Counted from the first letter of the stretch, positions 16,360 through 61,225 are shown. The stretch is 64,000 nucleotides of DNA from Allosphingosinicella sp. (GCA_036269695.1 DATBDY010000045.1:4607-68606); one strand, 5' to 3'. Numbers and translations are program-made. The notes: generated from the sequence alone by a model not told the origin.

Positions 16360-17456
16360 GCGCCCGCGCGACTTAACCGCCCCGCGCCTTCCGTCCCGAT
16401 CCGGGACAGCGAAAAACGGGGGGCAGAAGTGCGCGCTGCTTTGTGCCTAAGCCACGCTTGCGCCCTTCCTCATCCCGGGCGCGAGGGTGAACGCGAGAGT
16501 GGCAGGGCACAAGCTGCGCAGGAGACGAAAGAGCAGGCTTCCGCTCCTCGGGCGCGCGAGTGCCGGCTTCGCCCTGCTCGTGACCGCCGCCTCCTGCGTG
16601 CCCACCAGCGCGGCTTATGCGCCCGCCGCGACCGCCTTCGCCGCAACATCCGCCGCAGCACCCGCCCCGGCTCCCGCCGATGCACCGCCCGCGCCGCCGC
16701 CGATGGTGCTGCAGAATGTCTCGCCGACCGACGCCGCCGCAATCAACGCCTCCATCCCGCTCGCTTCCGTCGACAATCCGCGCGCGCCGTCGGTCGTCTT
16801 CCGCGCCGCCGCCCCCGTCGACCAGCTCCGCTCGGTCGATTGCCTCGCCCAGGCCGTCTATTACGAAGCGCGCTCCGAAGGGGTCGACGGCCAGCGCGCT
16901 GTCGCGCAGGTGGTGCTGAACCGGGTCCGCCATCCCGCATTCCCGAGCAGCGTCTGCGGCGTCGTCTATCAGGGGCCGCAGCGCGTCGGCGGCGGCTGCC
17001 AGTTCACTTTCACCTGCGACGGCTCGCTGGCGGTGGCGCCGTCCGGCCCGGCCTGGTCGCTCGCCCGCCGCATCGCCGCCGAAGCGCTGGCGGGTGAGGT
17101 GTACGCGCCCGTCGGCGAAGCGACCCATTATCACACCCAGCAGGTCGTCCCCGCCTGGGCCTTCCGGCTCGCCAAGGTGGCGGTGATCGGCGCCCACAGC
17201 TTCTATCGCCTGCCCGGCGCATGGGGCGAGCCCGGCGCCTTCCGCCAGGCCTATGCCCGCCGCGAGCCTTCGCCTTCCGTCCTGATCGCGACGCGACTCC
17301 CGGCTTCGGTCGGCCGCGTCGCGCCGACCCTGCCGGTGCTCGCGACAATGCTCCCCGGTGCACAGATGCCCGGGCGTGCGACCACTCCGCCGCCGCTCGA
17401 CGAGCGCCTCCCCGTCTCGCAGGTGAAGGCGGAATATCGCGATTCTGGCCGCTGGA

Positions 17457-25402: not shown

Positions 25403-25489
25403 GCCCAGGTGGCGGAATTGGTAGACGCACCAGCTTCAGGTGCTGGCGCTCGCAAGGGCGTGGAGGTTCGAGTCCTCTCCTGGGCACCA
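25403..25489 (+). tRNA. tRNA-Leu (anticodon CAG)
   Basis: Acceptor stem GCCCAGG/CCTGGGC, D-arm GGCGGAATTGGTAGACGC, anticodon stem-loop CCAGC-TTCAGGT-GCTGG. It has a long variable arm, T-arm GGTTCGAGTCC, discriminator A and an encoded CCA. Confidence 0.9.
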
Positions 25490-27333: not shown

Positions 27334-27347
27334 GCCTCTGTTTTTCC

Positions 27348-27441
27348 GTCATCCCGGACTTGATCCGGGATCCATGAACACGGCCTCTCTGCGGATTATC
27401 GTACGCCGTGTTCATGGGTTGCGGATCAAGTCCGCAATGAC
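27348..27441. repeat. dispersed palindromic repeat, family B (intact copy)
   Basis: GTCATCCCGGACTTGATCCGGGATCCATGAACACGG ... CCGTGTTCATGGGTTGCGGATCAAGTCCGCAATGAC. It is a nested hairpin: each arm also folds on itself. Confidence 0.7.
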
Positions 27442-27511
27442 GAATGGCACGCGCTAAAGCTTTCGTAAGGCTCCAGCGGCTATTCCGCTCCGGTCACAGG
27501 AGGGGTTTGCC

Positions 27512-27942: not shown

Positions 27943-28200
27943 ATGCCGGTTTCCAACACCTCGATCGTCGAGCGGATCGCGCGCGTCATCGCCGGCCGCG
28001 TCGTCAGCATCAACGCGGAAGGGGACGACCCCTCGGCGGGCGACCAGGTCGACTCGATCTGGCGCGATTTCAGGGACGATGCATGCGCCATCCTCCGCAC
28101 CCTGCGCGAACCCGATCGCGCGATGGCCCAAGCGGGCGATCCGGCGATGTGGGAGCGGATGGTGCTCGCCGCGCTCCAGGAGGAAGGCGCCTCGGCCTGA
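27943..28200 (+). CDS. hypothetical protein
   Basis: 85 aa with GAGAGGAG upstream of the ATG. GC3-rich. No domain. Confidence 0.5.
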   Translation: MPVSNTSIVERIARVIAGRVVSINAEGDDPSAGDQVDSIWRDFRDDACAILRTLREPDRAMAQAGDPAMWERMVLAALQEEGASA

Positions 28201-28207
28201 CTTCCTC

Positions 28208-28294
28208 GTCACGCCGGACTTGATCCGGCATCCATGAACACGGAAGCAGCAACTTACCGAGGCAGCGTTCATGGGCCCCGGATCAAGTCCGGGG
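28208..28294. repeat. Family B palindromic repeat copy interrupted by the casposon. Its last 4 nt (CGAC) are displaced to 39817..39820.
   Basis: GTCACGCCGGACTTGATCCGGCATCCATGAACACGG ... CGTTCATGGGCCCCGGATCAAGTCCGGGG. The terminal complement of GTC... is found only after the right-hand duplication. Confidence 0.7.
28276..28294. repeat. target-site duplication, left copy (CCCCGGATCAAGTCCGGGG)
   Basis: Identical 19-mer at 39798..39816 in direct orientation, immediately outside the TIRs. The exact TSD/TIR border is ambiguous within the G/C runs, so the TSD is 15-19 bp. Confidence 0.75.
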
Positions 28295-28335
28295 GGTATA
28301 GTGATAAGGGGTGGAATTGTCGCGTTTGACCACAG
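28295..28335. repeat. casposon left terminal inverted repeat
   Basis: GGTATAGTGATAAGGGGTGGAATTGTCGCGTTTGACCACAG. The reverse complement of the right end is GGTATAGGGAACCGGTGGGAATTGCACGTGGATGACCACAG. Shared blocks are GGTATAG, GGAATTG and TGACCACAG. Confidence 0.75.
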
Positions 28336-28393
28336 CGCGAGCTGCCGGCCGGTGCGTCGCCCTGCCCCCGGAAAAGGGCGGTTGCTGCGCTGC

Positions 28394-28921
28394 CTATTTC
28401 AATGATGCGGCGACGTACAGGCGATCCAGCACGTCGCGGGTTTGTTCGCCTAGCTGTCGCATCGCCAGCAGAAGCTGTGGCACCGCCCGCCTATCGACAG
28501 CGTTGTCTAGCGCGGCTTTCACGCTATTGATCGCGTGTGATAGCTTCGTAATAGCCTGAAGATCGGCCCCAGTTTTGAGAACGACCCGAAGATCAACCAG
28601 CATCCATTGAAGCTTAGTAACGGCATCTAGGCAATCTTGGCGGAGAACCGGGGCATCCTTAGAATCGTTAGCCAATGCATCATTGAGACGACGCACCTTT
28701 TGGGATAGCTGGATTATCTGATCATTGAGATCATTCGTCGTGTGACTAAGATGTTCGCTCCTTGCCTTGTCCACTTCGAAATGCCGATTAATAGCAGGGG
28801 AAACGAAATAGACACCGACTCCCGCCGCAACACTTGCCACGATCGTTAGCCAAACAGGCATCTTGTCCGCAAACAACCATGGGCACTTTGATTGCCACCA
28901 AGCTCCGAACCTACCGAGCAT
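28394..28921 (-). CDS. hypothetical membrane-anchored coiled-coil protein (casposon cargo)
   Basis: AT-richer ORF with one N-terminal TM (WLTIVASVAAGVGVYFV), then helical repeats. The start is ambiguous (GTG 28960, ATG 28921, ATG 28861). It overlaps or abuts the upstream gene. Confidence 0.5.
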   Translation of the reverse strand: MLGRFGAWWQSKCPWLFADKMPVWLTIVASVAAGVGVYFVSPAINRHFEVDKARSEHLSHTTNDLNDQIIQLSQKVRRLNDALANDSKDAPVLRQDCLDAVTKLQWMLVDLRVVLKTGADLQAITKLSHAINSVKAALDNAVDRRAVPQLLLAMRQLGEQTRDVLDRLYVAASLK

Positions 28922-30074
28922 CAAGTTGTGCCCTGTGGTTAGCGACCTGAACGCGCTCACTGAGGCTGAGGGTCATCGCATTCGTCGCAGGGCGCCCGAG
29001 TTGGCGCTGTACCTCCCGCCAGTTCGTCGGCCTCATCGAATTGATATAATCGTCCAATTCCGCTTCACGCGGAGCCTTTCCAGCGCCGGCCATAGCATTT
29101 TTGACAGTATCAGTCGCCTCTTGCTTCGTCTGATCGAAATTTTGGGCGGGGTCGGCAGTTGCGACCATTAGACCGGCCGAGGCCAAAATGGACAGCGACC
29201 CAAGCGCAGCGATGATTGAAAACCGACCCGGTGAGTTAAAGTTCTGGGCAAATTCCTCAACAAGCGCTTCGTCATAATAGTGGTCAATAGCCTGTTGAAG
29301 GTCCATCCCTTGGAATGACTCGATTTCACCGATACTGTAGGCGAATACCGAGGCAACCACGTACTTAATTAACCGGGCGGCAGCATATGGTTGCAACGGG
29401 TCTTTACCGCGATAGTCGTCACCAAACACGTCAAGCTTGGAGTGCTCTCCCCAAACGTAGCTCGGATAAACCCGTGAAAAAATCTCTTCATAATATTCAG
29501 GGTCAAGCTTTGTGATCGCGTGCTTATTCTGGAGCCTTCGTGAAACCCGAGCCGGAAAGTCGCGGCGTGCAAGGGCCGTGTTCAGCCACCGCACCTTCCT
29601 CGCGGGCACGATTTCCCCCTGCAATAGCGCGATCGGCGTATCGTCTGTCTTTCGCCAAGGGTGCGTTATCTCACCGATTAGAAACGGATCGAAGTGTCCG
29701 TACGGAGGCGACATCACCAAATCGCCGGCCTTCGCATCAACGAAGAGGCGGATGACGTTGCCTAACTCGGCGGCAAACGATTTCGCTTCGGTGCTCCCGG
29801 TCTGATACGGATACGGGTTGTAAGCGGAGGGGCGGCGAGAGGGCGGCGTATTCGTCGCACCCCGCACGTAGCGTCCTATCGCGTCCGACATGTGCAAATG
29901 CCGGCGGATCAACTCTTCCGACTCAAAAACGCGATCGTTCGCATCGAAGCCGGGCAGGCTCAGGAAAACGGAGCGAGTGTCACGGAATAGCTCAAAGAAC
30001 CGACGCCCGGTGCCGGCATAGATCAACCAGACCGAAACATCATTACGAATCAAACGAATGCGCGATAATTCCAC
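28911..30074 (-). CDS. hypothetical protein, 387 aa (casposon cargo)
   Basis: GTG start preceded by AGGGGGG. There is one hydrophobic segment near residue 310 (FSIIAALGSLSILASAGLMVA). No domain recognised. Confidence 0.55.
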   Translation of the reverse strand: MELSRIRLIRNDVSVWLIYAGTGRRFFELFRDTRSVFLSLPGFDANDRVFESEELIRRHLHMSDAIGRYVRGATNTPPSRRPSAYNPYPYQTGSTEAKSFAAELGNVIRLFVDAKAGDLVMSPPYGHFDPFLIGEITHPWRKTDDTPIALLQGEIVPARKVRWLNTALARRDFPARVSRRLQNKHAITKLDPEYYEEIFSRVYPSYVWGEHSKLDVFGDDYRGKDPLQPYAAARLIKYVVASVFAYSIGEIESFQGMDLQQAIDHYYDEALVEEFAQNFNSPGRFSIIAALGSLSILASAGLMVATADPAQNFDQTKQEATDTVKNAMAGAGKAPREAELDDYINSMRPTNWREVQRQLGRPATNAMTLSLSERVQVANHRAQLDAR

Positions 30075-30410
30075 GAAGCCCCCCTGTCATAAGGCAGCCG
30101 AGCCTAACGTGTGTTTACGTGCAACGCTAGCGGGCGGTGGGCGCGTCTACAGCCGCTTTGATATGCAATCCCGTCCCCCGACCTGATTTGGTTGTCCGCG
30201 AAGCGGCTCATGCCACAGGCGACGCCTAAAGCTCGGCTGGTGACATAATGCCGTAGCGGCTGGGGCGACAGCGCTCTTAGGGCATGCGAAGCGCCCGGCG
30301 CTACAGGACCGTCAAACTACGACTTCGATACTCTTCCTGCTCACCCGCCCTCAAACGCTCGCCTTTTAATCAACAGGCCGCATGTTACAGTGGCGTCGGG
30401 AGGAAGCGTC

Positions 30411-31871
30411 ATGCTCTTATCTGCCGCGCTTGGTATCAATCTTAGCCAACCCCTGCTCGATTTCGTCGATATCGACATGGAGCTCGATTTCCCGCTCTAC
30501 ATTGACCCGCTGGGGTTCGTGGACCCAAAGGACCGCTTCGCGGCTGAGTGTCAGGAGGATATCCGCGATTTCTTTGGGGCCGTTCTTCAGGCCATCATCG
30601 ATGGCGACTTAGGGAAAGGGGGAGCGCTACTAGCTGCTCTCCAAGAGCCGAATGAAACCCATCTAGGAGTTTCACAAGGCGAGCCGAGAGGGCGGGGGAT
30701 CGGTGCGAAACAGGCGCAACAAATTCTCGATAACTTGAGGGCAAGCCCGGCTGCTCGGACAGGGCTTCTACAAGACCTAACCGACTGCGCCTTGTTCATA
30801 GACAACGTTGGCGCGGACAAGGTTTCAGATATAACCACTAACATCATCCGCCGTCATCTGATCGAATACACACAGCAGCAATTTGAACACCTCCGTGTCC
30901 CTATAGACACTATATTGCCAACGGGCCGCCTATGGGCTCGCGGCGAGGCTAGGTGGGACAACACACAGTTTGATCGTGTGCCAGTAGTAGAAGGGCGGAG
31001 AGTGCTGCTAGTTCCGAAGCGGTATGTCCGCTGGCGCGGCGGGATGCAACAACTTGCATCGCAATACTATAATCACTTCGTAACTAATTTTGTGAAGGAA
31101 GAGCAGCTACAGATAAACGGTCATCTCGTTAGAGTCGTAAAAACGAAAAAAGGGGAAAAGCGTGAGGTATTCAAATATGATATCCACAAAGACATGCCCC
31201 TTACAAAGGAAAATTTAGCGCGGTTTTCCGTTGAAAACCCCCAAGTCTATCATGCTTTCAAGGGGACGCTGGTCCGACGCGGCTCCATCGGGCTGCGAAA
31301 GTTGCTGGAGGTCGATGGCGAGCCATTTGAAGGGCGAGCCTTCGACGCTGAAGTGACACAGGTGTTACGGGACATTCCTTCCGGCAGGCCAAGCGCTACT
31401 GCGTACCACCATATCGTCGCCGGTCTGATTACCTACATTTTCTATCCAAATCTCATTACTCCAACGCTAGAGTTAGAAATCAATCAAGGTAGAAAGAGAA
31501 TCGATATTGCATACGCGAATGCGGCGAGTCAGGGACTTTTTCGTGAGATACGCGAAGACCCGTTCCTGCTTGCGCGTGAGATCATGGTTGAGTGCAAAAA
31601 CTACACGGAAGATTTGGAGAATCAGGAAATTGATCAGATGATTGGACGTTTCGACCCGCGCCGGGGTCGATTTGGAATTATCGCATGTCGAGCCGTACAG
31701 GACGAAGCACGCCTCTTAGAGAGGTGTCGAGACATGTTTCGGGCACAGCAAGGCGCGGCCATTGTGTTAACAGATGACGACTTTACGGGGTTACTCGCTG
31801 TTCCGGAGATAGATCGGGGGAATGCGGTCGAAACCCTTTGCCGCCGTAAGTTTCGTGCTTTGCTCCAATAA
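30411..31871 (+). CDS. hypothetical protein with a C-terminal PD-(D/E)xK-like nuclease motif (casposon cargo)
   Basis: ATG 30411 preceded by GGGAGGAAG. The C-terminal region has GRKRIDIAYAN ... EIMVECKNY (D ... E-x-K spacing of the restriction-endonuclease fold). The N-terminal ~330 aa are unrecognised. Confidence 0.6.
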   Translation: MLLSAALGINLSQPLLDFVDIDMELDFPLYIDPLGFVDPKDRFAAECQEDIRDFFGAVLQAIIDGDLGKGGALLAALQEPNETHLGVSQGEPRGRGIGAKQAQQILDNLRASPAARTGLLQDLTDCALFIDNVGADKVSDITTNIIRRHLIEYTQQQFEHLRVPIDTILPTGRLWARGEARWDNTQFDRVPVVEGRRVLLVPKRYVRWRGGMQQLASQYYNHFVTNFVKEEQLQINGHLVRVVKTKKGEKREVFKYDIHKDMPLTKENLARFSVENPQVYHAFKGTLVRRGSIGLRKLLEVDGEPFEGRAFDAEVTQVLRDIPSGRPSATAYHHIVAGLITYIFYPNLITPTLELEINQGRKRIDIAYANAASQGLFREIREDPFLLAREIMVECKNYTEDLENQEIDQMIGRFDPRRGRFGIIACRAVQDEARLLERCRDMFRAQQGAAIVLTDDDFTGLLAVPEIDRGNAVETLCRRKFRALLQ

Positions 31872-31899
31872 CTCAGTTTGTCGAGCGCGAATTCGGCGA

Positions 31900-34800
31900 T
31901 CAGAGCGGCGTCAAATAGCCTCCCCAAGAGGACTCTCGGTACGTAACCGGCCTCGCCTCCGCGAGCCTGCGCCTTAGATTTGATGGGTCGAGGCTGAGTA
32001 TGCGCGCGGCTCCCCTGAGGCCGTTTTTTTCGACCGCTCGGCACAGGGCCGCAATACCGGCTGCCTTGGCGGCGCGTTGAATCGCTGCGGTCTTAGATAA
32101 GCTGGCCAATGCCGAGTTTCCGATGAGCGCGGCGAGGACACTGCTCTCTCCCGACAAAGCCTTTCTCAATTTGGCCCGCGATATTCCCAGCGCTTCAGCG
32201 ACAGTCGCCGGCCGAAGGGTCTGGACAGTCTCCCTCAGCTCGGTAGCCAACCCATTAAGGGAGGAGGTCGAACTTCCGTAATCGGGCGTCGCGCTCCGGT
32301 CTAAACCGATAAAGAACTGCTCCTCCCATCGGTTCGCTTCCTTGCCGATATGCCGAATTCCGGTAGCGAGAACATGCCGGCGGCGTGTCGAGCCGCGATC
32401 AGCAAAATCCGCGTTCAGGAATTTGGATTCAGAGCGAAGATGATATTGCGCCAGTGCATGGCGATAGGATTTGAGGCCAGCCGGTAAAAGCGGCTCGGCG
32501 GTCTCGCGGTCAAAGGCGGCGGCCGATGCCTTGGAATGGTCGGTGTCAAATGGAGCTATCGGCTTCGGGAGCCGGACGGCGGGCTTTCGGCCACGCCTCT
32601 TGCCGCCGATCAGCTCCACAGGCTCACACGGATTTGCGGTGAAGGATAGGAGGAAGCCAAACGGCTTCACCTGTTCCCGGTAGCTCCGTCCCGCATTGTA
32701 GTGCCTGAACCATCGCAATAGCTCGGGGGTGGTCGCCGCGTAGCGACTGACGGCGGGGGCATCCAGCGCAGGATGATAGCCTAGGTCGACCCGATCCGGG
32801 GTGCCGGCCAGCGCGGCGCTCACAATCTGCCACCATAGATCATGGTGCCACAGCTCGAGCTTCAATGGCCCTAAGTTCACTTGGGGAGGCGGAATGTCGG
32901 CAGCCGGATCGTCTTTTCCGTAAGGCGCTCGCAAATGGCCCAACCCGTGAGCGGAAGCCTTCCGAATTACAGGTTTGCCGGTTTCGTCGATATTGAACAG
33001 GCAATACCGTTTTGCGGATATGGCCCAGCAATAGAGTGGAGCAAATTCGCTCCCGCCAATTCGGAAATTCTCATCCTCGATTTTTAGAATTGAGCCTGAA
33101 AAAGAATACGGGTTTAGCGCCCCGAACCAATCGACAATTGCCCGCACACGGTCGCGGAATTGCTCCTCGGACATTGCGGCCGGTTTGGCGATTGCCATGC
33201 TGTCGGTATCGCAAAACGACCACCCCAATTCCGCGTCCGTCACCAATCGCTCGGTAACCGCCAGCATCAGCCTCGCCGCTCCGGCAATCAAAGACGCCAC
33301 CAAGGGGTGAAAGAATGGCCCCGGCTCCTCAACCCGTTCGGACTGGAAGCTGAAAGGATCGTCGGTCCCGCTGTGCACCGTGAGGGAAATCGGCTCCGCC
33401 CGATCGGCGACATTGATTTCGGCGAAAACGCCATAGCTTGTCGAATTGGCCGCAATTTTGATAGCGTTCTGCTCTATCTCCAACGCCTCCCGCTCATTTG
33501 AATTGGCATTGTCGCGGCGGCCTTTGACGGATTGCCGAAGCTCGATCAGCCTGCGGTAAAAATCGTCCTCAATAGGATCGACCACATATTCCGCTTTGCC
33601 GCTGATATTGATCGGCCGCAGCCCCGATTGAACCGGCCCCGGCGCGAAGGCCATTGCTTCGACTACTTGCACCGGCTTCCCCGTGAGCAGCTTCGCGGCG
33701 ATGCAATCTGCCAGCGTGAACCATAGCGGCTGCTCGGACGTGAGCGGATTGAGGCCAATCGTCGGCTGCGCTTCCCCGTTGTAGCTGGCGCGTATCGGGA
33801 AAATGTCGGCATTGGGGAGCACCCGGACCAGCACCGCCAGCCCCTGCCACACCGGCTTTTCCCTCAAGTCAGTTGCATCGATGCTCGCCAGCAACTCGCG
33901 AGTTTCGGCGGTTGCATCTCGCCACGTCATCCCCTCTGCAATGACGAAGCGCCACAGGCCCATGAGGGTGCAAACGGTTGGGTACATGGACAGGAAATCG
34001 CAGAGCATGACGTGTCGCAGCTCGCGCCTGATTCGCACCTCTGAGCGCCCGCCGAAATAGCTTCCCATGATGTTGGCGAGGATCTGTCGCGGGAAATCCG
34101 GCTGGATCTTCTGCCACGGCCGGATGCCCATATCGCGGAAATTGCCCTTGCCGATGCTGGCTTCGCTGAAAACCTTTTCGGGGGGAGTGCTCGTTATCCC
34201 GAAGGCGGCATACCGGTGGACAAGCTCCGCATAGCACTCCCACGTTGTCTGCACGTCGCCCATCGCATAGCGGACCATCGCGCTCGTTATCGGCCCTTCA
34301 AACTCCTCAAATTTGAGCTTGGGATTGGGAACGCTTAGGTGTTTGGCTAGGCCCGCGAGCGAGAATGATCGGGCGAAGATGGAGCCCGCCAGCGTCTTCA
34401 CATCGACAAAATGACCGGCCCGAAAGGGCGATTTATCGCCGCGCCGCCTTTGGCTACGCGCGTCCCGCTGCTTCGGAAGCCCCGCGAACCGAATGAATGC
34501 GGAGCGCTGCGAAATGTGCCTCACTCGCACATGCGGTTGATATGGGTTTTCAGACAGCGCGAAGCTGAAGCCTCCGCGCATTTCATTGCGAGCGGAGCTA
34601 TGGCGTATAGCTATCCGCGAAATGTCGAACGGAAGATTGAAGCCGACGATGGTAGCCCGGCAGGCGTAGCCGATGGCGTAGAAGATCGTCTCCGCAAATT
34701 CGTCCCGAGTTAGCAGCGTCAACTCAGCCGTTTTCGTGTAGGAGCGGAGCACTTCAAGCTCGGCGGCTGAGACGGTCGAGGGCTCATAGAAAATGCCGCT

Positions 34801-35037
34801 GCCGTGCAACTCTCCCGCCCGCCGTACCTGATAGGTGCCGAAGCGCAGCGCCTGGCCCGCGTCGGTCCTCGTCTCTGTGTCGAAAACGAGCGTCCATGGC
34901 GAGGCCGGCACCTCTGAGCGTTTCCGCTTGGGCGCCGATGTTTGCGGCTCTTTCAGCTCCACAAAGCGGGGGCCGGCGAAAGCGCGAAGCGCTATCGGCA
35001 AGCGGTCGGATATTTCGGGCAGGGCTTCGGCGTTCAT
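31900..35037 (-). CDS. family B DNA polymerase (casposon PolB) with a long C-terminal extension
   Basis: Exonuclease motifs: ExoI LVFDTETRTD, ExoII GFNLPFDISRI, ExoIII YAMGDVQTTWE. Polymerase motifs: motif A LCDFLSMYPTV, motif B KIAANSTSYGVF, motif C FCDTDSMAI. Also KxY AISAKRYCLF. Confidence 0.9.
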   Translation of the reverse strand: MNAEALPEISDRLPIALRAFAGPRFVELKEPQTSAPKRKRSEVPASPWTLVFDTETRTDAGQALRFGTYQVRRAGELHGSGIFYEPSTVSAAELEVLRSYTKTAELTLLTRDEFAETIFYAIGYACRATIVGFNLPFDISRIAIRHSSARNEMRGGFSFALSENPYQPHVRVRHISQRSAFIRFAGLPKQRDARSQRRRGDKSPFRAGHFVDVKTLAGSIFARSFSLAGLAKHLSVPNPKLKFEEFEGPITSAMVRYAMGDVQTTWECYAELVHRYAAFGITSTPPEKVFSEASIGKGNFRDMGIRPWQKIQPDFPRQILANIMGSYFGGRSEVRIRRELRHVMLCDFLSMYPTVCTLMGLWRFVIAEGMTWRDATAETRELLASIDATDLREKPVWQGLAVLVRVLPNADIFPIRASYNGEAQPTIGLNPLTSEQPLWFTLADCIAAKLLTGKPVQVVEAMAFAPGPVQSGLRPINISGKAEYVVDPIEDDFYRRLIELRQSVKGRRDNANSNEREALEIEQNAIKIAANSTSYGVFAEINVADRAEPISLTVHSGTDDPFSFQSERVEEPGPFFHPLVASLIAGAARLMLAVTERLVTDAELGWSFCDTDSMAIAKPAAMSEEQFRDRVRAIVDWFGALNPYSFSGSILKIEDENFRIGGSEFAPLYCWAISAKRYCLFNIDETGKPVIRKASAHGLGHLRAPYGKDDPAADIPPPQVNLGPLKLELWHHDLWWQIVSAALAGTPDRVDLGYHPALDAPAVSRYAATTPELLRWFRHYNAGRSYREQVKPFGFLLSFTANPCEPVELIGGKRRGRKPAVRLPKPIAPFDTDHSKASAAAFDRETAEPLLPAGLKSYRHALAQYHLRSESKFLNADFADRGSTRRRHVLATGIRHIGKEANRWEEQFFIGLDRSATPDYGSSTSSLNGLATELRETVQTLRPATVAEALGISRAKLRKALSGESSVLAALIGNSALASLSKTAAIQRAAKAAGIAALCRAVEKNGLRGAARILSLDPSNLRRRLAEARPVTYRESSWGGYLTPL

Positions 35038-35396
35038 GCCTGCCTCGCCCCAGCTGGGGACTTCGCTCGCTCGATAAGGGCGGTTCCAAATTCTGTCAGC
35101 TTCTCAACAATCAGCCGGAGCAGGTCGGCTAAGCCGAGCAGGAAATGGCCGATACAATCCAGCATCGGCTCGGCGGCTGCATCGAACGGCGGATGGCCCT
35201 TTTGATCGTCTGTCACCTTGCGGTGGCAGTTGCTGCAAATGATCACCATCGCTTCATCGCGCTTATGATCGGCGACATGATGGAGATCGAAGCATCGCCA
35301 ATCTGTTTCGCCGCACGTGCCGCACCGCGGCTCATTGGTGCCGAGCTTTTCGAGGCGCGCCTGTTTGCGAGCCTCCGCCGCAAGGGGATTACTCAT
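35034..35396 (-). CDS. HNH endonuclease
   Basis: CGTCGE ... DLHHVADHK ... CSNCHRK, a Cys4 plus His-Asn-His pattern. ATG 35396 with AGGAG 5 nt upstream is preferred over GTG 35411. The stop overlaps the PolB ATG (ATGA). Confidence 0.85.
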   Translation of the reverse strand: MSNPLAAEARKQARLEKLGTNEPRCGTCGETDWRCFDLHHVADHKRDEAMVIICSNCHRKVTDDQKGHPPFDAAAEPMLDCIGHFLLGLADLLRLIVEKLTEFGTALIERAKSPAGARQA

Positions 35397-35407
35397 CACA
35401 ACTCCTG

Positions 35408-35980
35408 TCACTGAATGAGCCGGTAGACCTGTTCGAATCCTTCGCCTCCGGCGGCGGCGAGGCGGTAGAGACTGTTCGGGTCGGTTTCTAAAGGATGCGA
35501 TTTGCCCGCTGCGTCCTTGACGCTGCGCCCCTTGAACGGCTCCAGTTCCGCAATGTCATTGGTTTCGAGAAAGCGCCGCACGGCCGCGAGATGACTACCG
35601 ACCACTGAGGCCTGATCGAAGCCGCTAATCCTCAGCATCTTCGACTGACCGGCCGTGAGCACCCGCATGTGGCGCAATCGTTGGTCTGTGATTTGCCAGC
35701 GGCGGCCGCGCCGCTCGGCAAGCGCATTCTCCCGAAGGAACCGGCGCAACCGCTCCGGCGACACACCCGCTTCCTTCGCAGCGTCGCCTTGTTTGCCGGT
35801 GCGGCGGAGTGCCTTCAGCGCGGCCTCTAACCGGTCCTCACCCTTGATCGGCTTGCGGGTGCGGATCGGCGCTTCGCCGGCTCTGGCGTGACCGCGCGCT
35901 TGAGACCGGCTGAGGCCCTTCGCCGCAGCCCGCGCCAAGCGCCGCTCATACTCAGCCTTATAGTCGCGCCGGCGCGCCAT
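35408..35980 (-). CDS. HTH-containing protein (casposon)
   Basis: Start at MARRRDYKAEYERRLARAAAKGLSRSQARGH. It has a predicted HTH (QGDAAKEAGVSPERLRRFLRE). Confidence 0.6.
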   Translation of the reverse strand: MARRRDYKAEYERRLARAAAKGLSRSQARGHARAGEAPIRTRKPIKGEDRLEAALKALRRTGKQGDAAKEAGVSPERLRRFLRENALAERRGRRWQITDQRLRHMRVLTAGQSKMLRISGFDQASVVGSHLAAVRRFLETNDIAELEPFKGRSVKDAAGKSHPLETDPNSLYRLAAAGGEGFEQVYRLIQ

Positions 35981-36102
35981 GCTTCCCGCCCGCTCTATTC
36001 CCCGACGCGGCGGACAGCCGCGCCTCCTCACGCAATGGAAGCTCATCGGGGAGGCAGGAGTCGAATCGTCAAAACATCAAAAGTCGGGCGAATTCCGCCG
36101 GT

Positions 36103-36783
36103 CTAATTAGATTTCCAAAAGGCTTTCAAATGGCGGATTAGCGTCTGCTGATCGGGCCGGTGTTCCGTAAAATTATCGGGGAATTGGCCTTTTCCAATTT
36201 TCCGGATTTCGCTGGCTTGCGACTTCCAAGGCATTTCCGGCGTGATACGCCCGGACTTCACAAGCGCCGCCGCGATTTCCAACACCCGCTCCCGATTGGA
36301 GGGTCGGCCAATCGTAGGTTTGGCGACCGCACCGCCTGGAATGATGCGGACTTTGGAATATCGCGCATTGCCGTCGCTGAATTCGGATTTTCGCCATTTG
36401 GCGAATTGCTTCTGGATTAGGAATTGCGGGACGGGCTCCGGCTCCGTCGCTTTCGGCCGATCAGCGGGAAATCCGAAGGCGAGCCATTCACCCCGTTCCA
36501 ATGCCGCAATTAATTGGTCCACCCGGCTTTCGCGGGCTTCCACGGTTGCGGACCAAAGGGACATGCCAGTCGCTATCGTGTCGATTAACGAGATTACATT
36601 CTGAGCCCCGGCAAGCCTGAATTTCTGTTTTTGAGCTTCAAAAAGCTGGCGCTGCTCTGCGGTCTTTTCGGCCAATTTGGATTGATCGACGCGCGGCGAA
36701 AATAGCTCCAAAGCCTCCTCTAATTCGAACCCTTCTCGCCACGCGGTTAGCCTTACATCTGCCGTTTTCCGATTAACCATCAT
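36103..36783 (-). CDS. hypothetical protein, 226 aa (casposon, first gene of the minus-strand module)
   Basis: ATG-ATG start next to the AT-rich divergent region shared with cas1. No domain recognised. Confidence 0.55.
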   Translation of the reverse strand: MMVNRKTADVRLTAWREGFELEEALELFSPRVDQSKLAEKTAEQRQLFEAQKQKFRLAGAQNVISLIDTIATGMSLWSATVEARESRVDQLIAALERGEWLAFGFPADRPKATEPEPVPQFLIQKQFAKWRKSEFSDGNARYSKVRIIPGGAVAKPTIGRPSNRERVLEIAAALVKSGRITPEMPWKSQASEIRKIGKGQFPDNFTEHRPDQQTLIRHLKAFWKSN

Positions 36784-36873
36784 TCTCGCCTAATTACCCG
36801 AAATCACTGCGGAAAATGCTTGTTTCGTGCTATGTAATTTCCTCGAAATTGGCCGCGCGAGGAACCACTAATC
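36784..36873. promoter_or_regulatory. AT-rich divergent intergenic region between the replication module and the Cas1 gene
   Basis: A 90-bp gap, the most AT-rich stretch in the element core. It contains the repeated motif CGAAAT (CCCGAAATCAC / CCTCGAAATTGG). Confidence 0.35.
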
Positions 36874-37986
36874 ATGCTGCTCGATCCCCAATTCGCCCAT
36901 GCCGAGATTGAGGCTCAACCGCAATGCTCCGCCCTCGACGCAAGCGCTCCCGATGAATGGACGGAGCGAAGCGATTTCTGGTTAGAGGATACCGCGCGGC
37001 AGGCAAAACCGCGCCGCAAGCGGGAACGCAATCCCAACCCACTAATCCTTTGCGGACATGGGGTGTCGCTTCGGGTGGAGCACGGCGCATTGGTCATCCG
37101 GGACGGCTTCACTCATTACCCGCAAGAGCAGGCCCGGTTTCGGTTCTTCCCCCGTGATTTGGAGCTACCAACCCGCATCCTGTTGCTTGACGGGAGCGGC
37201 ACCCTCTCTTTCGACGTGCTTAGCTGGCTAGCAGAGCAAGGGGTGGCCCTCGCGAGGGTGAGCTGGACCGGCGAGGTCGCGACCGTGGCGAGTGGCACCG
37301 GCTATGCGCCGGATCGTGAAAAGCTCCGCTGGCAGCATGAAACCCGTGCCGACGAAACCAAGCGGCTCGCATTCGCCGCCGATATTATCCGGCAGAAATT
37401 GGCAATAACCATCGCAACGTTGGAACACTATGTGCCCGCCTCTGGCGCCCGCGAAGTAGCCATCGCTAAAGCGAGCGCCGGCATCGATCGGCTCGGCCGT
37501 GAACGGTTCAGCGACATGAACGGGGTGTTCGCCATTGAGGGCGAATGTGCGTCCGCCTATTTCGCCGCTTGGCATGGCCTTCCGCTATCATGGAAGGGCG
37601 TAGCGAGACGGCCGGTCCCCGACGATTGGCATCGCTACAGCGGGCGCAGCTCTCTGGCGACGGGAGTCAAGGCTGAGAACCGGAACGCCTCTCACCCGCT
37701 CAACGCGATGCTGAATTACGGCTATGCGGTGAAGCTCGCCGAAATGAAGATACAGGCGATTGCCGACGGCTATGATCCAAGCTTCGGGATCATGCACAAC
37801 GGCAAGCGCGGAAACCCGGCTTTCGTCCTCGACCTGATCGAGCCGGAGCGCCCCCGAGTAGATGCCGCCACTCTCGCGTTCGTCCAGAGCCGAACTTTCG
37901 CCGCTGCGGACTTCGTAGTCAGCCCGAACGGATCGTGTCGGCTGTCGCCGCAGCTAGCCCGAGCCGTTGCGGCGCTGGCCGCTTAG
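36874..37986 (+). CDS. cas1: Cas1-family integrase (casposase)
   Basis: N-terminal beta-domain pattern (LILCGHGVSLRVEHGALVIRDG ... ILLLDGSGTLSFDVLSWLAEQGVALARV). Catalytic pattern: E in FAIEGECASAYF, H in NASHPLNAMLNYGYA, D/E in DPSFGIMHNGKRGNPAFVLDLIEPERPRVD. Confidence 0.9.
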   Translation: MLLDPQFAHAEIEAQPQCSALDASAPDEWTERSDFWLEDTARQAKPRRKRERNPNPLILCGHGVSLRVEHGALVIRDGFTHYPQEQARFRFFPRDLELPTRILLLDGSGTLSFDVLSWLAEQGVALARVSWTGEVATVASGTGYAPDREKLRWQHETRADETKRLAFAADIIRQKLAITIATLEHYVPASGAREVAIAKASAGIDRLGRERFSDMNGVFAIEGECASAYFAAWHGLPLSWKGVARRPVPDDWHRYSGRSSLATGVKAENRNASHPLNAMLNYGYAVKLAEMKIQAIADGYDPSFGIMHNGKRGNPAFVLDLIEPERPRVDAATLAFVQSRTFAAADFVVSPNGSCRLSPQLARAVAALAA

Positions 37987-38000
37987 ACAAAGCGGACGGG

Positions 38001-38219
38001 CTAGAGCTGTGATTTGCGTTGCTCAAAGGCCGCCGTTTCTTTTGCCACAGCATCAATCAACTGCGCAGCGTTGCGCCGATAGCGAGCCATAGCGCTGGCG
38101 ACACCCGAGCCAATCGAGCGCGGGTTTTGATTGGCAAAGCTGTTCCGCCCCGGCCCCGTCCGCTTCGTGCCGCGCGGTTGCATCGCGAAGTCGCGCCGCC
38201 AGATCAGCGACCGCATCAT
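38001..38219 (-). CDS. possible small basic protein (72 aa); weak call
   Basis: Internal ATG-ATG of ORF 38001..38429 (MMRSLIWRRDFAMQPRGTKRTG...). No clear SD and no motif. It does not look like Cas2. Confidence 0.2.
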   Translation of the reverse strand: MMRSLIWRRDFAMQPRGTKRTGPGRNSFANQNPRSIGSGVASAMARYRRNAAQLIDAVAKETAAFEQRKSQL

Positions 38220-38491
38220 GGTTCGCTTTGGTGGGCACTGCGTGCGGCTTCGTCCTCTATGGAGCATGGGCGGCACTTCACCTCTGGACACATTAGCCCG
38301 GCTACCCTGCCGCTCGCTTCCTTCCGGCAGAGCCCGGCGCGGAGCTGAGTGGAAGGACACAGGGGCTCCGGTCCCCCCTACTAGGTTGGAGCTGCCTCGG
38401 CACCATTTCGCCGCAGACCCAATTTCCAATTTCTGCGAGCCGAATGCGCATGATACGACGGCCTGCCACTGCGACCGGAGGAGAGTCCATT

Positions 38492-39721
38492 ATGGATAAT
38501 TGGGCCGATGCAGCGCACAACTATACACCGCTTTCGCCAGCATCCGGTACCGAGGGGAATAACCCTCCTAGCTATGGCCAGCTACTCGAATGGCTTGCGC
38601 ACACCGACTCAAGGGCTCTAGCATTAGATTTTTGGGCGCGCGGCAACTACGTCAAGTATTTAGCCGCATCGAGGCAAATGCAAGACCCAGTTGTTATAGT
38701 GCCATTTGACTACATTGATGAGCTTCGCGTATATTTCCGAAGGATGGTGTTGATGGGCCTACCTGCCCATTATGTATATACTGGAGAATTGTCGCCGCAA
38801 GAAAAGGTATCTTTTACCGTCCCTGGAGAGGACGATTTTGTTTTTGACGGTGGCGCAGGCTTCCTTGTAATTATGTCCGAACCATTTAGAATCCGTGGAC
38901 GTAAATGGCTTTACGCCTTGGGTAAATCTAGAATAATGCCTGAGGTATTCGCGGAATGGTTGCTTGAAGAAGCGGCAGTCGAGTTTGCCTCTGGCCGCGC
39001 TTTCCTCTCGCCTGCTGAGCTAATCGGTATACCGAAGCCTCTGCTGGCGGAGGGCTTAGATGTAGCGGCAGAGGTTCAAGACTCCATTGTTATCTCCTCG
39101 AAACTCTCTGCTGCAGAATTTATCTTTAATCTGGAGCTGCCTTATATCGATGACATGCCGCATGATACATTTACTAAGATCATCGGCGATCACGATGACC
39201 GGCTTTTCCGGTTTCGCCGAGCAATAAGAAAACTTGTAGCCGGAGTTGTGCCCGGAGAGCTAGATGACACGTTAGAAGAATTAAAAGACGAGATTGCTCA
39301 GTTGCGCTTATCTGATTCCGGCCTACGATTCCGACAGACAATATCTCGCTTCGGCGGCTCTCTGACTACCGTGGCGGCAGCAGGATCAGCGTTTGGTGCA
39401 TCTCTCGGAAGGGGGCTGAATAGTCTCGATACGGCCGGTCCCGTAGTCGCTGGTGCGGCCACGGCTGGGGCCGTTACTGCTTTGGTGGATATCTGGAAGC
39501 AAACAGTTGAACGGCGAGCAAAGCGAAGGGAAAACAAGTTTTCTATCTTCTGGGACCTCGGAGTCAAAAGTCCCTCACAACTAAGGCGACGTAAGAGCCT
39601 ATCAAAATTCAAGGCTTTGAAAAGTAGCACACCGGTGTTGATAAAGGAGGCTCAGGATTGCCATTGGATGTGCGAATCTGCTCCTAACCTCCGTTTGGTA
39701 TTCCAAGCCCGCAGCTCCTGA
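38492..39721 (+). CDS. hypothetical protein, 409 aa, with a Gly/Ala-rich hydrophobic C-terminal region (casposon cargo)
   Basis: ATG 38492 preceded by GGAGGAGAG. It is the most AT-rich gene in the window by eye. C-terminal segment is FGGSLTTVAAAGSAFGASLGRG ... VVAGAATAGAVTALV. No domain recognised. Confidence 0.6.
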   Translation: MDNWADAAHNYTPLSPASGTEGNNPPSYGQLLEWLAHTDSRALALDFWARGNYVKYLAASRQMQDPVVIVPFDYIDELRVYFRRMVLMGLPAHYVYTGELSPQEKVSFTVPGEDDFVFDGGAGFLVIMSEPFRIRGRKWLYALGKSRIMPEVFAEWLLEEAAVEFASGRAFLSPAELIGIPKPLLAEGLDVAAEVQDSIVISSKLSAAEFIFNLELPYIDDMPHDTFTKIIGDHDDRLFRFRRAIRKLVAGVVPGELDDTLEELKDEIAQLRLSDSGLRFRQTISRFGGSLTTVAAAGSAFGASLGRGLNSLDTAGPVVAGAATAGAVTALVDIWKQTVERRAKRRENKFSIFWDLGVKSPSQLRRRKSLSKFKALKSSTPVLIKEAQDCHWMCESAPNLRLVFQARSS

Positions 39722-39756
39722 GGCCGATTGATAGGATGTACCCACCGGGGCGTAAA

Positions 39757-39797
39757 CTGTGGTCATCCACGTGCAATTCCCACCGGTTCCCTATACC
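39757..39797. repeat. casposon right terminal inverted repeat
   Basis: CTGTGGTCATCCACGTGCAATTCCCACCGGTTCCCTATACC, the reverse complement partner of 28295..28335. Confidence 0.75.
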
Positions 39798-39816
39798 CCC
39801 CGGATCAAGTCCGGGG
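39798..39816. repeat. target-site duplication, right copy (CCCCGGATCAAGTCCGGGG)
   Basis: Identical to 28276..28294. It is followed by CGAC, which completes the interrupted family B repeat. Confidence 0.75.
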
Positions 39817-39837
39817 CGACGGTTCGGTGAAAGAGCC

Positions 39838-61136: not shown

Positions 61137-61220
61137 GTCATGCCGGACTTGATCCGGCATCCACCTTTCTGCCTCTCATGTCCCGAAGGAAGATGGATCC
61201 CGGATCAAGTCCGGGATGAC
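61137..61220. repeat. dispersed palindromic repeat, family B (intact copy)
   Basis: GTCATGCCGGACTTGATCCGGCATCC ... GGATCCCGGATCAAGTCCGGGATGAC. Confidence 0.7.
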
Positions 61221-61225
61221 GAAAG

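What the first reader, a model, noticed from the sequence alone, without database searches (positions are those of the whole stretch)
28295..39797. An 11.5-kb casposon: Cas1-family integrase plus family-B DNA polymerase plus HNH nuclease, with TIRs and a target-site duplication
**Cas1 evidence.** ORF 36874..37986 carries the Cas1 signature in order. It has the N-terminal beta domain (LILCGHGVSLRVEHGALVIRDG, ILLLDGSGTLSFDVLSWLAEQGVALARV). The catalytic residues follow in IEGE, NASHPLNAMLNYGYA and FVLDLIEPERPRVD.

**PolB evidence.** ORF 31900..35037 carries every family-B polymerase motif. These are ExoI FDTET, ExoII NLPFD, ExoIII YAMGD, motif A DFLSMYP, motif B KIAANSTSYG, motif C CDTDS and KxY AKRY.

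**Context.** An HNH nuclease and an HTH protein lie between them. I see no cas2, no other cas gene and no CRISPR array anywhere in the 64 kb.

**Boundaries.** The unit is delimited by imperfect inverted termini and a direct duplication. It is visibly AT-richer than the flanking chromosome.

Cas1 plus PolB inside TIRs is the defining architecture of casposons (Krupovic, Koonin and colleagues, 2014). Bacterial examples are few as far as I know. The gene content (PolB, HNH, HTH) resembles what was called family 3. I cannot tell from sequence alone whether one has been described in this lineage.
Basis: partly seen in the sequence, partly recalled or inferred. Interest (0 to 1): 0.9.

Follow-up and report, generated by a model that had tools for sequence, protein, structure and literature searches.

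The report
Bacterial family-3 casposon in a palindrome
This is a real, intact 11.5-kb casposon (a self-replicating transposon that uses a Cas1-type integrase) of the already described bacterial "family 3"; it sits in a short palindromic repeat between two host genes, as do its many metagenomic relatives.

Summary
A Cas1-family gene (Pfam Cas_Cas1 E=1.7e-34) and a 1045-aa family-B polymerase lie in a low-GC block (0.54-0.62 against 0.64-0.73). All exonuclease and polymerase motifs are invariant in 20 homologs, and the AlphaFold model matches only PolB structures. HNH and HTH genes lie between the two. The block is bounded by 43-nt imperfect inverted termini.

Comparison with 13 complete relatives moves the ends 2 nt outward on each side. 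The element is 28293..39799, its termini begin GGGGTATAG, and the duplication is 15 bp (CCGGATCAAGTCCGG).

The Cas1 is 45% identical to the Henriciella marina casposase (HenMar-C1). It groups with it at bootstrap 100, apart from CRISPR Cas1. No cas2 was found next to cas1, and no CRISPR array lies in the 64 kb.

Family-3 casposons were reported in Sphingomonadales in 2016, so this is a new member of a known kind.

I found no published report of two details:
- The clade targets short C-run/G-run palindromes. Here the target is one arm of a REP-like hairpin whose outer stem continues across the insert.
- The published HenMar-C1 ends fit a 16-bp palindromic duplication better than the annotated 37-nt terminus with a 1-nt repeat.

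Mobility was not tested.

The parts
28207..28292 (.). REP-like intergenic hairpin that holds the target. The 5' arm is CCGGACTTGATCCGG at 28214-28228 and the 3' arm is at 28278-28292. The outer stem CGTCACG (28207-28213) pairs with GGCGACG to the right of the insert (39815-39821).
   Evidence: (I3, I6). Two uninterrupted paralogous copies lie at about 27347-27443 and 61137-61225.
28278..28292 (+). Left copy of the 15-bp target-site duplication, CCGGATCAAGTCCGG.
   Evidence: 0 mismatches as a direct repeat, 5 as an inverted repeat.
28293..28335 (+). Left terminal inverted repeat, GGGGTATAGTGATAAGGGGTGGAATTGTCGCGTTTGACCACAG.
   Evidence: The terminus GGGGTATAG...TGACCAC is shared by 53 non-redundant ends in related loci and the window.
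28394..28960 (-). Cargo ORF of 188 aa, function unknown.
   Evidence: No family hit. A homolog (52% identity) lies in casposon L038.
28911..30074 (-). Cargo ORF of 387 aa, function unknown.
   Evidence: No family hit. A homolog (58% identity) lies in casposon L038.
30390..31871 (+). Cargo ORF of 493 aa, similar to the PADLOC candidate defence protein PDC-M36A.
   Evidence: PADLOC PDC-M36A E=1.9e-37 and phrog_27295 E=1.4e-81. No PDB or literature match.
31900..35037 (-). Family-B DNA polymerase, 1045 aa, with intact Exo I-III, motifs A, B, C and KxY. The C-terminal tail (about 925-1030) is helical and possibly an HTH.
35034..35411 (-). Divergent HNH endonuclease with invariant CxxC...HH...CxNCH.
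   Evidence: PHROG HNH families, best E=4e-5. Invariant columns in 10 homologs. Weak PF01844 and McrA hits.
35408..36046 (-). HTH protein, conserved in every complete relative.
   Evidence: HTH_17 E=0.001, below cutoff. 39-78% identical homologs lie at the same position in 12 elements.
36103..36783 (-). Variable ORF of 226 aa between the HTH gene and cas1, function unknown.
   Evidence: Conserved only in L026. No family hit.
36874..37986 (+). Casposase (Cas1 homolog), 370 aa, with no fused HTH or Zn domain.
38444..39721 (+). Cargo ORF of 425 aa (called as 409 aa from 38492 in the source record), function unknown.
   Evidence: No family hit.
39757..39799 (-). Right terminal inverted repeat. Its reverse complement reads GGGGTATAGGGAACCGGTGGGAATTGCACGTGGATGACCACAG.
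39800..39814 (+). Right copy of the 15-bp target-site duplication. It is followed by GGCGACG, which completes the outer stem of the REP hairpin.
   Evidence: (I6).

Best explanation
An integrated, apparently intact family-3 (bacterial) casposon of 11,507 bp (28293..39799) sits in the chromosome of a probable Sphingomonadales bacterium.

**Shown here**
- The conserved core is PolB-HNH-HTH on the minus strand, followed by cas1 on the plus strand.
- Variable cargo lies at both ends.
- The 43-nt imperfect TIRs begin GGGGTATAG.
- A perfect 15-bp TSD flanks the element.
- The insertion lies between convergent host genes, in the 3' arm of a REP-like hairpin.

**Inferred from family-2 casposase biochemistry and structure (PMC5137440, PMC6977970)**
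- A casposase oligomer uses the 3'-OH of each end (5'-...CTATACCCC-3') to attack the two target strands 15 bp apart.
- Each attack falls at 5'-CC^CC within the palindrome CCCCGGA-TCAAG-TCCGGGG.
- Gap repair then yields the 15-bp duplication.
- The element's own PolB replicates it. The HNH and HTH proteins assist end processing or recognition.

**Comparative inference**
- This alphaproteobacterial clade prefers short palindromes with a C-run on the 5' side and a G-run on the 3' side, often REP-like elements.
- That fits a two-fold symmetric integrase reading the same half-site on both strands.
- Because the TIR ends in GGGG/CCCC, each junction rebuilds a full target.
For: **Cas1**
- Pfam E=1.7e-34.
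- The best solved relative is the M. mazei casposase 6opm, with catalytic positions aligned.
- Only the generic cas1 NCBIfam model passes its cutoff. All CRISPR-subtype models fall far below theirs.
- 45% identity to the HenMar-C1 casposase, and a bootstrap-100 clade with it in the NJ tree.

**PolB**
- All motifs are invariant.
- The PDB profile hits are, with one marginal exception, family-B polymerases.
- Foldseek's top 50 are all family-B polymerases at E about 1e-10.

**Ends**
- GGGGTATAG occurs only at the two ends, against 0.06 expected.
- The same terminus is present at 53 non-redundant ends in related loci and the window.
- Of 13 two-ended elements, 11 have 0-1 mismatch 15-bp direct repeats. 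The other two fit with a 1-nt register shift, one perfectly and one with 1 mismatch. The inverted-repeat reading gives 1-11 mismatches.
- L001 and L038 bound the TSD at exactly 15 bp.

**Insertion**
- The REP outer stem is split by the element and is restored in the joined flanks (-32.3 kcal/mol).
- Two uninterrupted paralogous REP copies lie in the window.
- GC falls only inside the element.

**Core synteny**
- The core gene order is kept in all 12 complete relatives (PolB reduced to a remnant in L049) and in HenMar-C1.

**Palindromic targets**
- 37% of 35 non-redundant TSDs have at least 5 of 7 symmetric pairs in exact register, against 1.7% of control 15-mers (p about 1e-14).
- The enrichment remains among CC..GG 15-mers (39% against 6.7%, p about 1e-4).
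Against: - There is no direct evidence of mobility. No sister strain with an empty site was found, because the flanking KefC-like protein is encoded only on this same metagenome contig.
- No near-identical second copy exists. The best Cas1 relative is 78% identical and the best PolB relative 82%.
- PolB, HNH and HTH all fall below the curated Pfam cutoffs.
- The two TIRs match at only about 70% of positions over 43 nt.
- The TSD sequence is itself a repeated genomic motif (7 copies in the window). The duplication argument therefore rests on position and orientation, and on relatives.
- The tree is NJ only, with weak deep nodes.
- Replication by PolB and the roles of HNH and HTH are inference.
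- The palindrome preference could partly reflect survival of insertions in neutral REP sites rather than integrase specificity.
Confidence: 0.9

Rival explanations
1. It is a degenerate CRISPR adaptation remnant, that is, a CRISPR-type Cas1 stranded in a genomic island, and the PolB is an unrelated neighbour.
For: Public records name the homologs 'CRISPR-associated endonuclease Cas1'. The generic cas1 model TIGR00287 passes its cutoff.
Against: - No array lies in the 64 kb.
- No Cas2 hit was found among the neighbouring ORFs.
- All CRISPR-subtype Cas1 models score far below their cutoffs.
- The Cas1 falls in the casposase clade at bootstrap 100.
- cas1 and polB are co-linear inside the same TIR/TSD in 13 elements, with polB reduced to a remnant in L049.
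Confidence: 0.02
2. It is a genomic island or prophage remnant integrated by another recombinase. The apparent TIR and TSD are then chance products of the abundant REP-like repeats.
For: The duplicated 15-mer is a repeated motif in this genome (7 copies in the window). The cargo includes a phage-family protein (phrog_27295).
Against: - None of the 10 ORFs matches a tyrosine, serine or DDE recombinase.
- GGGGTATAG marks exactly the two ends and the ends of dozens of relatives inserted at different sequences.
- The TSDs are direct, 15 bp long and in a fixed register.
- Neither the phage nor the plasmid collection holds a match.
Confidence: 0.02
3. It is a true casposon by descent, but immobile or domesticated in this host.
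For: It is a single copy with imperfect TIRs (about 70% identity over 43 nt). There is no near-identical copy in public data. No activity data exist for any family-3 element in the literature searched.
Against: - All core ORFs are full length, with catalytic motifs intact.
- The TSD is perfect, 15 of 15.
- The terminal 9 nt and the TGACCACAG box are kept at both ends.
- GC is still far from the host's.
- Relatives sit at many different sites.
Confidence: 0.15

Closest known systems
HenMar-C1, the family-3 casposon of Henriciella marina DSM 19595 (Krupovic et al. 2014, PMC4046053)
   Same: - Casposase 45% identical, with no fused domains, and in the same bootstrap-100 clade.
- Same core order: PolB-HNH-HTH on one strand, then cas1 on the other.
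- Intergenic insertion.
- On re-reading its ends, the same architecture appears. A G-run terminus (GGGATAAGGG) abuts a palindromic direct repeat, CTCCCGCATCCGGGAG, at both ends (L090 positions 352 and 16567).
   Different: - It is 16.3 kb long, with different cargo: a methylase, an SF1 helicase and a LanC/kinase protein.
- The terminus reads GGGATAAGG rather than GGGGTATAG.
- It was published with a 37-nt TIR that includes the palindrome, and a 1-nt direct repeat. My reading of the record gives a 16-bp TSD instead.
Citromicrobium bathyomarinum JL354 casposon, family 3, Sphingomonadales (Krupovic et al. 2016, PMC4779613)
   Same: Same bacterial order as the closest relatives of this element, same family, and an intergenic insertion.
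NitAL212-C1, the family-3 casposon of Nitrosomonas sp. AL212
   Same: Its TIR starts GGGGTATG..., against GGGGTATAG here. Its TSD is 14 bp against 15 here.
   Different: Its Cas1 carries fused Zn-binding and HTH domains. It branches outside the HenMar/window clade. Its published TSD, AGCCGGTACTGCCC, is not an evident palindrome.
Family-2 archaeal casposons (Aciduliprofundum boonei, Methanosarcina mazei), the only ones with biochemistry, structure and in vivo data
   Same: - Best solved homolog is 6opm.
- TSDs are 14-15 bp.
- The transferred end is 5'-TATATCCC-3' in M. mazei, against 5'-CTATACCCC-3' here.
- The gene set is PolB+HNH+HTH.
- The A. boonei target includes a palindrome, the TpsiC arm.
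   Different: - The hosts are archaea.
- The casposase has a C-terminal HTH that is needed for activity and is absent here.
- The targets are tRNA 3' ends with a directional 'leader', not free-standing symmetric palindromes.
CRISPR Cas1-Cas2 spacer integration
   Same: Cas1 fold and catalytic residues. Staggered attack at both borders of an often palindromic repeat, which is thereby duplicated.
   Different: Here there is no Cas2, no array, a 15-bp rather than a 25-50-bp duplication, and an 11.5-kb insert that carries its own polymerase.

Membership tests
Casposon (superfamily) | Encodes a Cas1-family integrase with intact catalytic residues. | tested here: met
   Pfam Cas_Cas1 E=1.7e-34. E, H and E/D align with the casposase 6opm and with Cas1 4n06. 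They are invariant in 24 homologs.
Casposon (superfamily) | Encodes a family-B DNA polymerase inside the same element. | tested here: met
   Motifs invariant. PDB profile hits almost only to PolB. Foldseek top 50 all PolB. Pfam alone is sub-threshold.
Casposon (superfamily) | Terminal inverted repeats. | tested here: met
   43-nt imperfect TIRs. The GGGGTATAG terminus is unique to the two ends and conserved across 53 non-redundant ends in related loci and the window.
Casposon (superfamily) | Target-site duplication flanking the TIRs. | tested here: met
   Perfect 15-bp direct repeat. The host REP hairpin is split by the insert.
Casposon (superfamily) | Cas1 is not linked to cas2, other cas genes or a CRISPR array. 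| tested here: met
   No array in the 64 kb. The element's ORFs give no Cas2 or other Cas hits apart from Cas1. The remaining host ORFs of the window were not all scanned.
Casposon (superfamily) | Cas1-dependent integration or excision activity. | not testable with these tools
   This needs biochemistry or read-level junction analysis. No empty-site strain was found.
Casposon family 3 | Casposase falls in the family-3 clade of the Cas1 tree. | tested here: met
   In the NJ tree with the Krupovic 2014 Cas1 set, the clade with HenMar-C1 has bootstrap 100, and it is sister to StrAlb/SacSpi/AceAut at 100. Deep nodes are weak, and maximum likelihood was not run.
Casposon family 3 | Bacterial host. 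| tested here: met
   The closest Cas1 and PolB homologs and related loci are from Allosphingosinicella, Sphingomonas, Croceibacterium, Sphingomicrobium and Novosphingobium. The flanks carry bacterial genes and a REP family shared with those loci. The host itself is an unnamed metagenome contig.
Casposon family 3 | HNH endonuclease and HTH protein genes accompany PolB and Cas1. | tested here: met
   HNH: PHROG E=4e-5 and an invariant CxxC..HH..CxNCH. HTH: HTH_17 E=0.001. Both are syntenic in 12 relatives. The HMM support is sub-threshold.
Casposon family 3 | PolB is of the RNA-primed type and nested within family-2 casposon PolBs. | tested here: inconclusive
   The best sequence and fold matches are archaeal PolB and Pol alpha. 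However, phi29 also matches (rank 27), DNA_pol_B_2 gives a weak hit, and no PolB phylogeny was made.
Casposon family 3 | Intergenic insertion site. | tested here: met
   The element lies between an 85-aa ORF ending at 28200 and the stop of a convergent Na+/H+ exchanger gene at 39838.
CRISPR adaptation module (considered and rejected) | Cas1 reaches a subtype-specific model cutoff and is adjacent to cas2 and an array. | tested here: not met
   All subtype models fall far below their cutoffs, for example I-E 25.9 against 215.6, II 61.3 against 120 and I-C 63 against 385. There is no cas2 and no array.

The most novel reading that the evidence does not exclude
The HenMar/Sphingomonadales clade of family-3 casposases may be symmetry- or structure-specific integrases.

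- They would select short free-standing palindromes (C-run...G-run, often REP-like hairpin arms) and cut 15-16 bp apart around the dyad.
- Every insertion would then create 'palindromic repeat - insert - palindromic repeat'.
- Because the TIR ends in GGGG/CCCC, each junction would regenerate a complete target that can receive the next element.
- L081 looks like this. That casposon sits between outward-facing ends of neighbouring elements.

This would be a living analogue of the step proposed for the origin of CRISPR arrays. It would also give an experimentally simple bacterial model, because the casposase has no fused HTH.
Probability: 0.4. Interest if true: 0.7.

Novelty: new member of a known kind. 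Interest (0 to 1): 0.5.

Why it matters
Casposons matter because their Cas1 integrase is the proposed ancestor of CRISPR spacer acquisition. All biochemistry, structure and in vivo work found in the literature search concerns archaeal elements of families 1 and 2.

This window adds one more bacterial family-3 element, which by itself is ordinary. The comparison it prompted yields three more useful points:
- The clade is large in public data. At least 718 Cas1 homologs at E<=1e-3 and at least 1194 at E<=1e-60 to HenMar-C1 were found, against a handful of family-3 elements in the papers read.
- The termini are sharply conserved.
- The target rule is simple and testable: a 15-16-bp duplication of a C-run/G-run palindrome.

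The rule also changes the reading of the published HenMar-C1 ends.

A symmetric palindromic target for a Cas1-family integrase that lacks an HTH domain is directly relevant to how CRISPR repeats came to be the integration site.

Tried and rejected
- **Empty site in a sister strain.** An exact-protein look-up of the flanking Na+/H+ exchanger returned only the window's own contig. I used the two uninterrupted paralogous REP copies and the split outer stem instead.
- **PolB against PDB by single sequence.** No hit. A profile and then a structure model were needed.
- **Plasmid and phage collections.** No match for Cas1 or PolB.
- **Rfam and tRNA.** Only tRNA-Leu(CAG) at 25403-25489, 2.8 kb away, so it is not the target. 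The tRNA-targeting model of family 2 is rejected for this element.
- **Cargo.** Pfam and NCBIfam found nothing for ORFs 188, 387, 226 and 425. PDC-M36 has no literature or PDB relative.
- **HNH.** Profile against PDB and Pfam scans of 10 homologs gave only sub-threshold support.
Rejected, because L001 and L038 bound the duplication at exactly 15 bp and GGGG is invariant at all 57 ends counted.
- **Flanking palindromes as part of the TIR (as published for HenMar-C1).** Rejected for this clade. The asymmetric central bases are direct, not inverted, at both ends.
- **Target always a two-armed REP.** Not so. Only 5 of 42 ends have a partner arm within 130 nt.
- **Supplement of the 2016 paper, for the Citromicrobium ends.** Not held.

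Full report
**What is in the sequence**

Between about 28.3 and 39.8 kb, GC falls from 0.64-0.73 to 0.54-0.62. This happens nowhere else in the 64 kb.

The block holds ten plausible ORFs:
- ORF 36874..37986(+) is a Cas1 homolog. Pfam Cas_Cas1 gives E=1.7e-34 and 119.7 bits against a cutoff of 22.3.
- Its best match among solved structures is 6opm (E=7e-19). That entry is the Methanosarcina mazei casposase. CRISPR Cas1 structures score lower.
- The catalytic E (IEGE), H (GIMHNG) and acidic pair (DLIEPERPRVD) align, and they are invariant in 24 homologs.
- Among NCBIfam models only the generic cas1 model passes its cutoff. Every CRISPR-subtype model is far below its own.

**The polymerase**

ORF 31900..35037(-) is poorly seen by Pfam (DNA_pol_B E=0.0011, below cutoff). 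As a single sequence it finds nothing in PDB. Three results nevertheless identify it as a family-B polymerase with an intact proofreading domain:
These are Exo I FDTET, Exo II NLPFD, Exo III YAMGD, motif A DFLSMYP, motif B KIAANSTSYG, motif C CDTDS and KRY.
- A profile of that alignment hits, with one marginal exception, only family-B polymerases in PDB, weakly (Deep Vent E=0.0035, Pol alpha).
- An AlphaFold model has mean pLDDT 60 and a confident core. Its top 50 Foldseek matches are all family-B polymerases (E 1e-10 to 1e-8, probability 1.0, about 685 aligned columns).

The C-terminal 125 residues give only weak HTH hints. Whether the enzyme is RNA-primed or protein-primed was not settled.

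**Between the two genes**

Three ORFs lie between PolB and cas1:
- A 125-aa protein has an invariant CxxC...HH...CxNCH pattern and matches PHROG HNH families (best E=4e-5). Pfam HNH and McrA hits are sub-threshold.
- A 212-aa protein has a sub-threshold HTH_17 hit.
- A 226-aa ORF has no match.

None of the ten ORFs matches a tyrosine, serine or DDE recombinase. The window has no CRISPR-like array, and its only RNA gene is a tRNA-Leu 2.8 kb away.

**Boundaries**

- GGGGTATAG occurs exactly twice in the window, at 28293(+) and 39799(-). Chance expectation is 0.06.
- From these points the two ends align as 43-nt imperfect inverted repeats that finish in TGACCACAG.
- Immediately outside both ends lies CCGGATCAAGTCCGG in direct orientation.
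- This 15-mer is the arm of a REP-like hairpin element. Two complete copies lie elsewhere in the window, at about 27347-27443 and 61137-61225. Seven matches were found against 0.31 expected.
- At the insertion, the 5' arm and loop lie to the left. The outer stem CGTCACG (28207) finds its partner GGCGACG only to the right of the element at 39815-39821 (repeat I6).
- Joining the flanks restores a hairpin of -32.3 kcal/mol, similar to the two intact copies.
- The site lies between an 85-aa ORF that ends at 28200 and the stop codon (39838) of a convergent Na+/H+ exchanger gene.

**Relatives**

Cas1 and PolB each have hundreds to thousands of homologs. Those that carry an organism name are mostly from Sphingomonadales genomes and MAGs. 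Most Cas1 homologs are annotated as CRISPR Cas1, and most PolB homologs as hypothetical. I fetched 8 loci from genomes and 80 from metagenomes.

- The terminus GGGGTATAG(T/C)GA...TGACCAC is present at 53 non-redundant ends in those loci and the window.
- Twelve elements have both ends, and they measure 8.2-18.3 kb.
- All twelve keep PolB-HNH-HTH on one strand followed by cas1 on the other, although PolB in L049 is reduced to a remnant. Cargo at both ends varies.
- L038 shares all three left-end cargo genes of the window element.
- L049 keeps TIRs and a TSD but has lost nearly all of PolB.

**The duplication is 15 bp and palindromic**

- In 11 of 13 two-ended elements (window included), the 15 nt outside the two GGGG termini are direct repeats with 0-1 mismatch.
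- The other two fit with a 1-nt register shift, one perfectly and one with 1 mismatch.
- Read as inverted repeats, the same sequences give 1-11 mismatches.
- L001 and L038 have flanks that differ just beyond the repeat. They fix the length at exactly 15 bp and the terminus at GGGG.

Across 35 non-redundant TSDs:
- The 5' side and the two bases before it are C-rich (68-89% C). The 3' side is G-rich.
- 37% have at least 5 of 7 symmetric pairs in exact register, against 1.7% of control 15-mers (p about 1e-14).
- Among CC...GG 15-mers, inner-arm complementarity is still enriched (39% against 6.7%, p about 1e-4).
- The arm sequences differ between targets (CCGGA, CTCCCC, CCGTG, CCCCC). What is shared is the symmetry plus the C and G runs.
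- Only 5 of 42 ends have a second REP arm nearby. The minimal target is therefore the short palindrome itself.
- Four ends lack any palindrome (L024, L029, L031, L079).

**Comparison with what is known**

- Krupovic et al. 2014 defined family 3 as the bacterial casposons HenMar-C1, StrAlb-C1, NitAL212-C1 and AceAut-C1, with Cas1, PolB and usually HNH and HTH.
- Krupovic et al. 2016 added a Sphingomonadales member, Citromicrobium bathyomarinum JL354. They state that all bacterial casposons are intergenic.
- The window's casposase is 45% identical to HenMar-C1 (E=4e-98) and 28% identical to StrAlb-C1.
- I built an NJ tree from the Cas1 sequences of their Additional file 2. The window, six related loci and HenMar-C1 form a bootstrap-100 clade.
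- That clade is sister (bootstrap 100) to StrAlb/SacSpi/AceAut. It is apart from family 1 and 2 casposases and from CRISPR Cas1. Deeper nodes are weak.
- The terminus resembles NitAL212-C1 (GGGGTATG..., 14-bp TSD). It also resembles the M. mazei end used in the crystal structure (5'-TATATCCC-3').

The finding is therefore a new member of a known kind.

**Re-reading HenMar-C1**

The 2014 supplement lists HenMar-C1 with a 37-nt TIR containing an internal palindrome, and a 1-nt direct repeat. I fetched the record as L090.
- Both ends read CTCCCGCATCCGGGAG next to GGGATAAGGGAAAGCA.
- The 16-mer is identical in direct orientation at both ends, and its asymmetric centre (CATC) is not inverted.
- It is bounded by mismatches on both sides.
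- It therefore fits a 16-bp palindromic TSD with a TIR that begins GGGATAAGG, the same architecture as here.
- I found no paper in the searchable library that describes target preference for family-3 casposases. Subscription journals are not covered by that library.

**Mechanism**

Shown here: the anatomy, the direct 15-bp duplication, the split host hairpin and the clade-wide target pattern.

Inferred from A. boonei and M. mazei work:
- A casposase oligomer uses the 3'-OH of ...CTATACCCC at each end to attack 5'-CC^CC on each strand, 15 bp apart.
- Repair then duplicates the 15 bp.
- A two-fold symmetric complex reading the same half-site twice would explain the palindromes. Cruciform recognition is an alternative that these data do not separate.

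Replication by the element's PolB and any role of HNH or HTH are inference. Because the TIR ends in GGGG/CCCC, each junction rebuilds the full 19-nt target. In L081, one casposon sits between outward-facing ends of neighbouring elements, which is the pattern expected from re-use of such a junction.

**Limits**

- No empty-site strain was found.
- No near-identical second copy exists.
- Neither the plasmid nor the phage collection holds a copy.
- No activity data exist for this element.
- The cargo ORF 30390..31871 matches the untested PADLOC candidate PDC-M36A (E=1.9e-37) and phrog_27295. Its function is unknown.

Noticed in passing
window 27347-27443 and 61137-61225 (plus the split copy 28207-28292 / 39815-39821): A family of REP-like intergenic hairpins of about 90 nt, CGTCAYSCCGGACTTGATCCGG...loop...CCGGATCAAGTCCGGSRTGACG. 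They fold at -32 to -38 kcal/mol. The same arm motif flanks casposons in Croceibacterium, Sphingomicrobium and marine metagenome loci (L002, L003, L010, L014, L017, L022, L066).
   Followed up: partly
window 30390-31871 (+), with 28911-30074 (-) and 28394-28960 (-): The cargo ORF of 493 aa matches the PADLOC candidate defence protein PDC-M36A (E=1.9e-37) and phrog_27295 (E=1.4e-81). By eye its C-terminus has a PD-(D/E)xK-like pattern (RIDIAY...VECKNY), which I did not test. It and the two neighbouring unknown ORFs recur together in another casposon (L038), so they may form one module.
   Followed up: partly
L090 (Henriciella marina AQXT01000002.1), positions 336-351 and 16568-16583: The published HenMar-C1 ends (37-nt TIR with an internal palindrome, 1-nt repeat) read better as a 16-bp direct duplication, CTCCCGCATCCGGGAG, next to a TIR that starts GGGATAAGGG.
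   Followed up: yes
L081 2200-2260 and 20132-20190; L083 about 390-430: Just outside the TSD on both sides of the L081 casposon lie outward-facing 42-nt inverted repeats, GGGTATAAGCTAACTACACAA..., that look like the ends of neighbouring casposons. L083 shows the same on its one visible side. This suggests tandem or nested insertions into a junction-regenerated target.
   Followed up: partly
L049 4321-12549: An 8.2-kb element with intact termini and a 15-bp TSD. It keeps HNH, HTH and Cas1 but only about 5% of PolB, so it is a polymerase-less derivative that would need PolB from elsewhere.
   Followed up: partly
L001 3339-3530 and 12563-12754: A 192-nt internal inverted duplication (78% identity) lies near both ends of the Allosphingosinicella casposon, apparently within small regulator-like genes.
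   Followed up: no
L024, L029, L031, L079 (right ends): Four ends with the canonical GGGGTATAG terminus abut sequences that are neither palindromic nor C-run/G-run. Three of them share a distinct TIR subtype (..GATTAGTCGCG..). They may be off-target insertions or a subgroup with a different specificity.
   Followed up: no
L090 1707-4268 and 11149-16450: HenMar-C1 cargo includes a RamC_N-Pkinase-LANC_like protein (853 aa), a DNA methylase and a 1364-aa SF1 helicase with a faint PDDEXK hit.
   Followed up: no
window 25403-25489: tRNA-Leu(CAG) lies 2.8 kb upstream of the element. It is not at the insertion site, unlike the tRNA-Leu targets of Methanosarcina casposons.
   Followed up: yes
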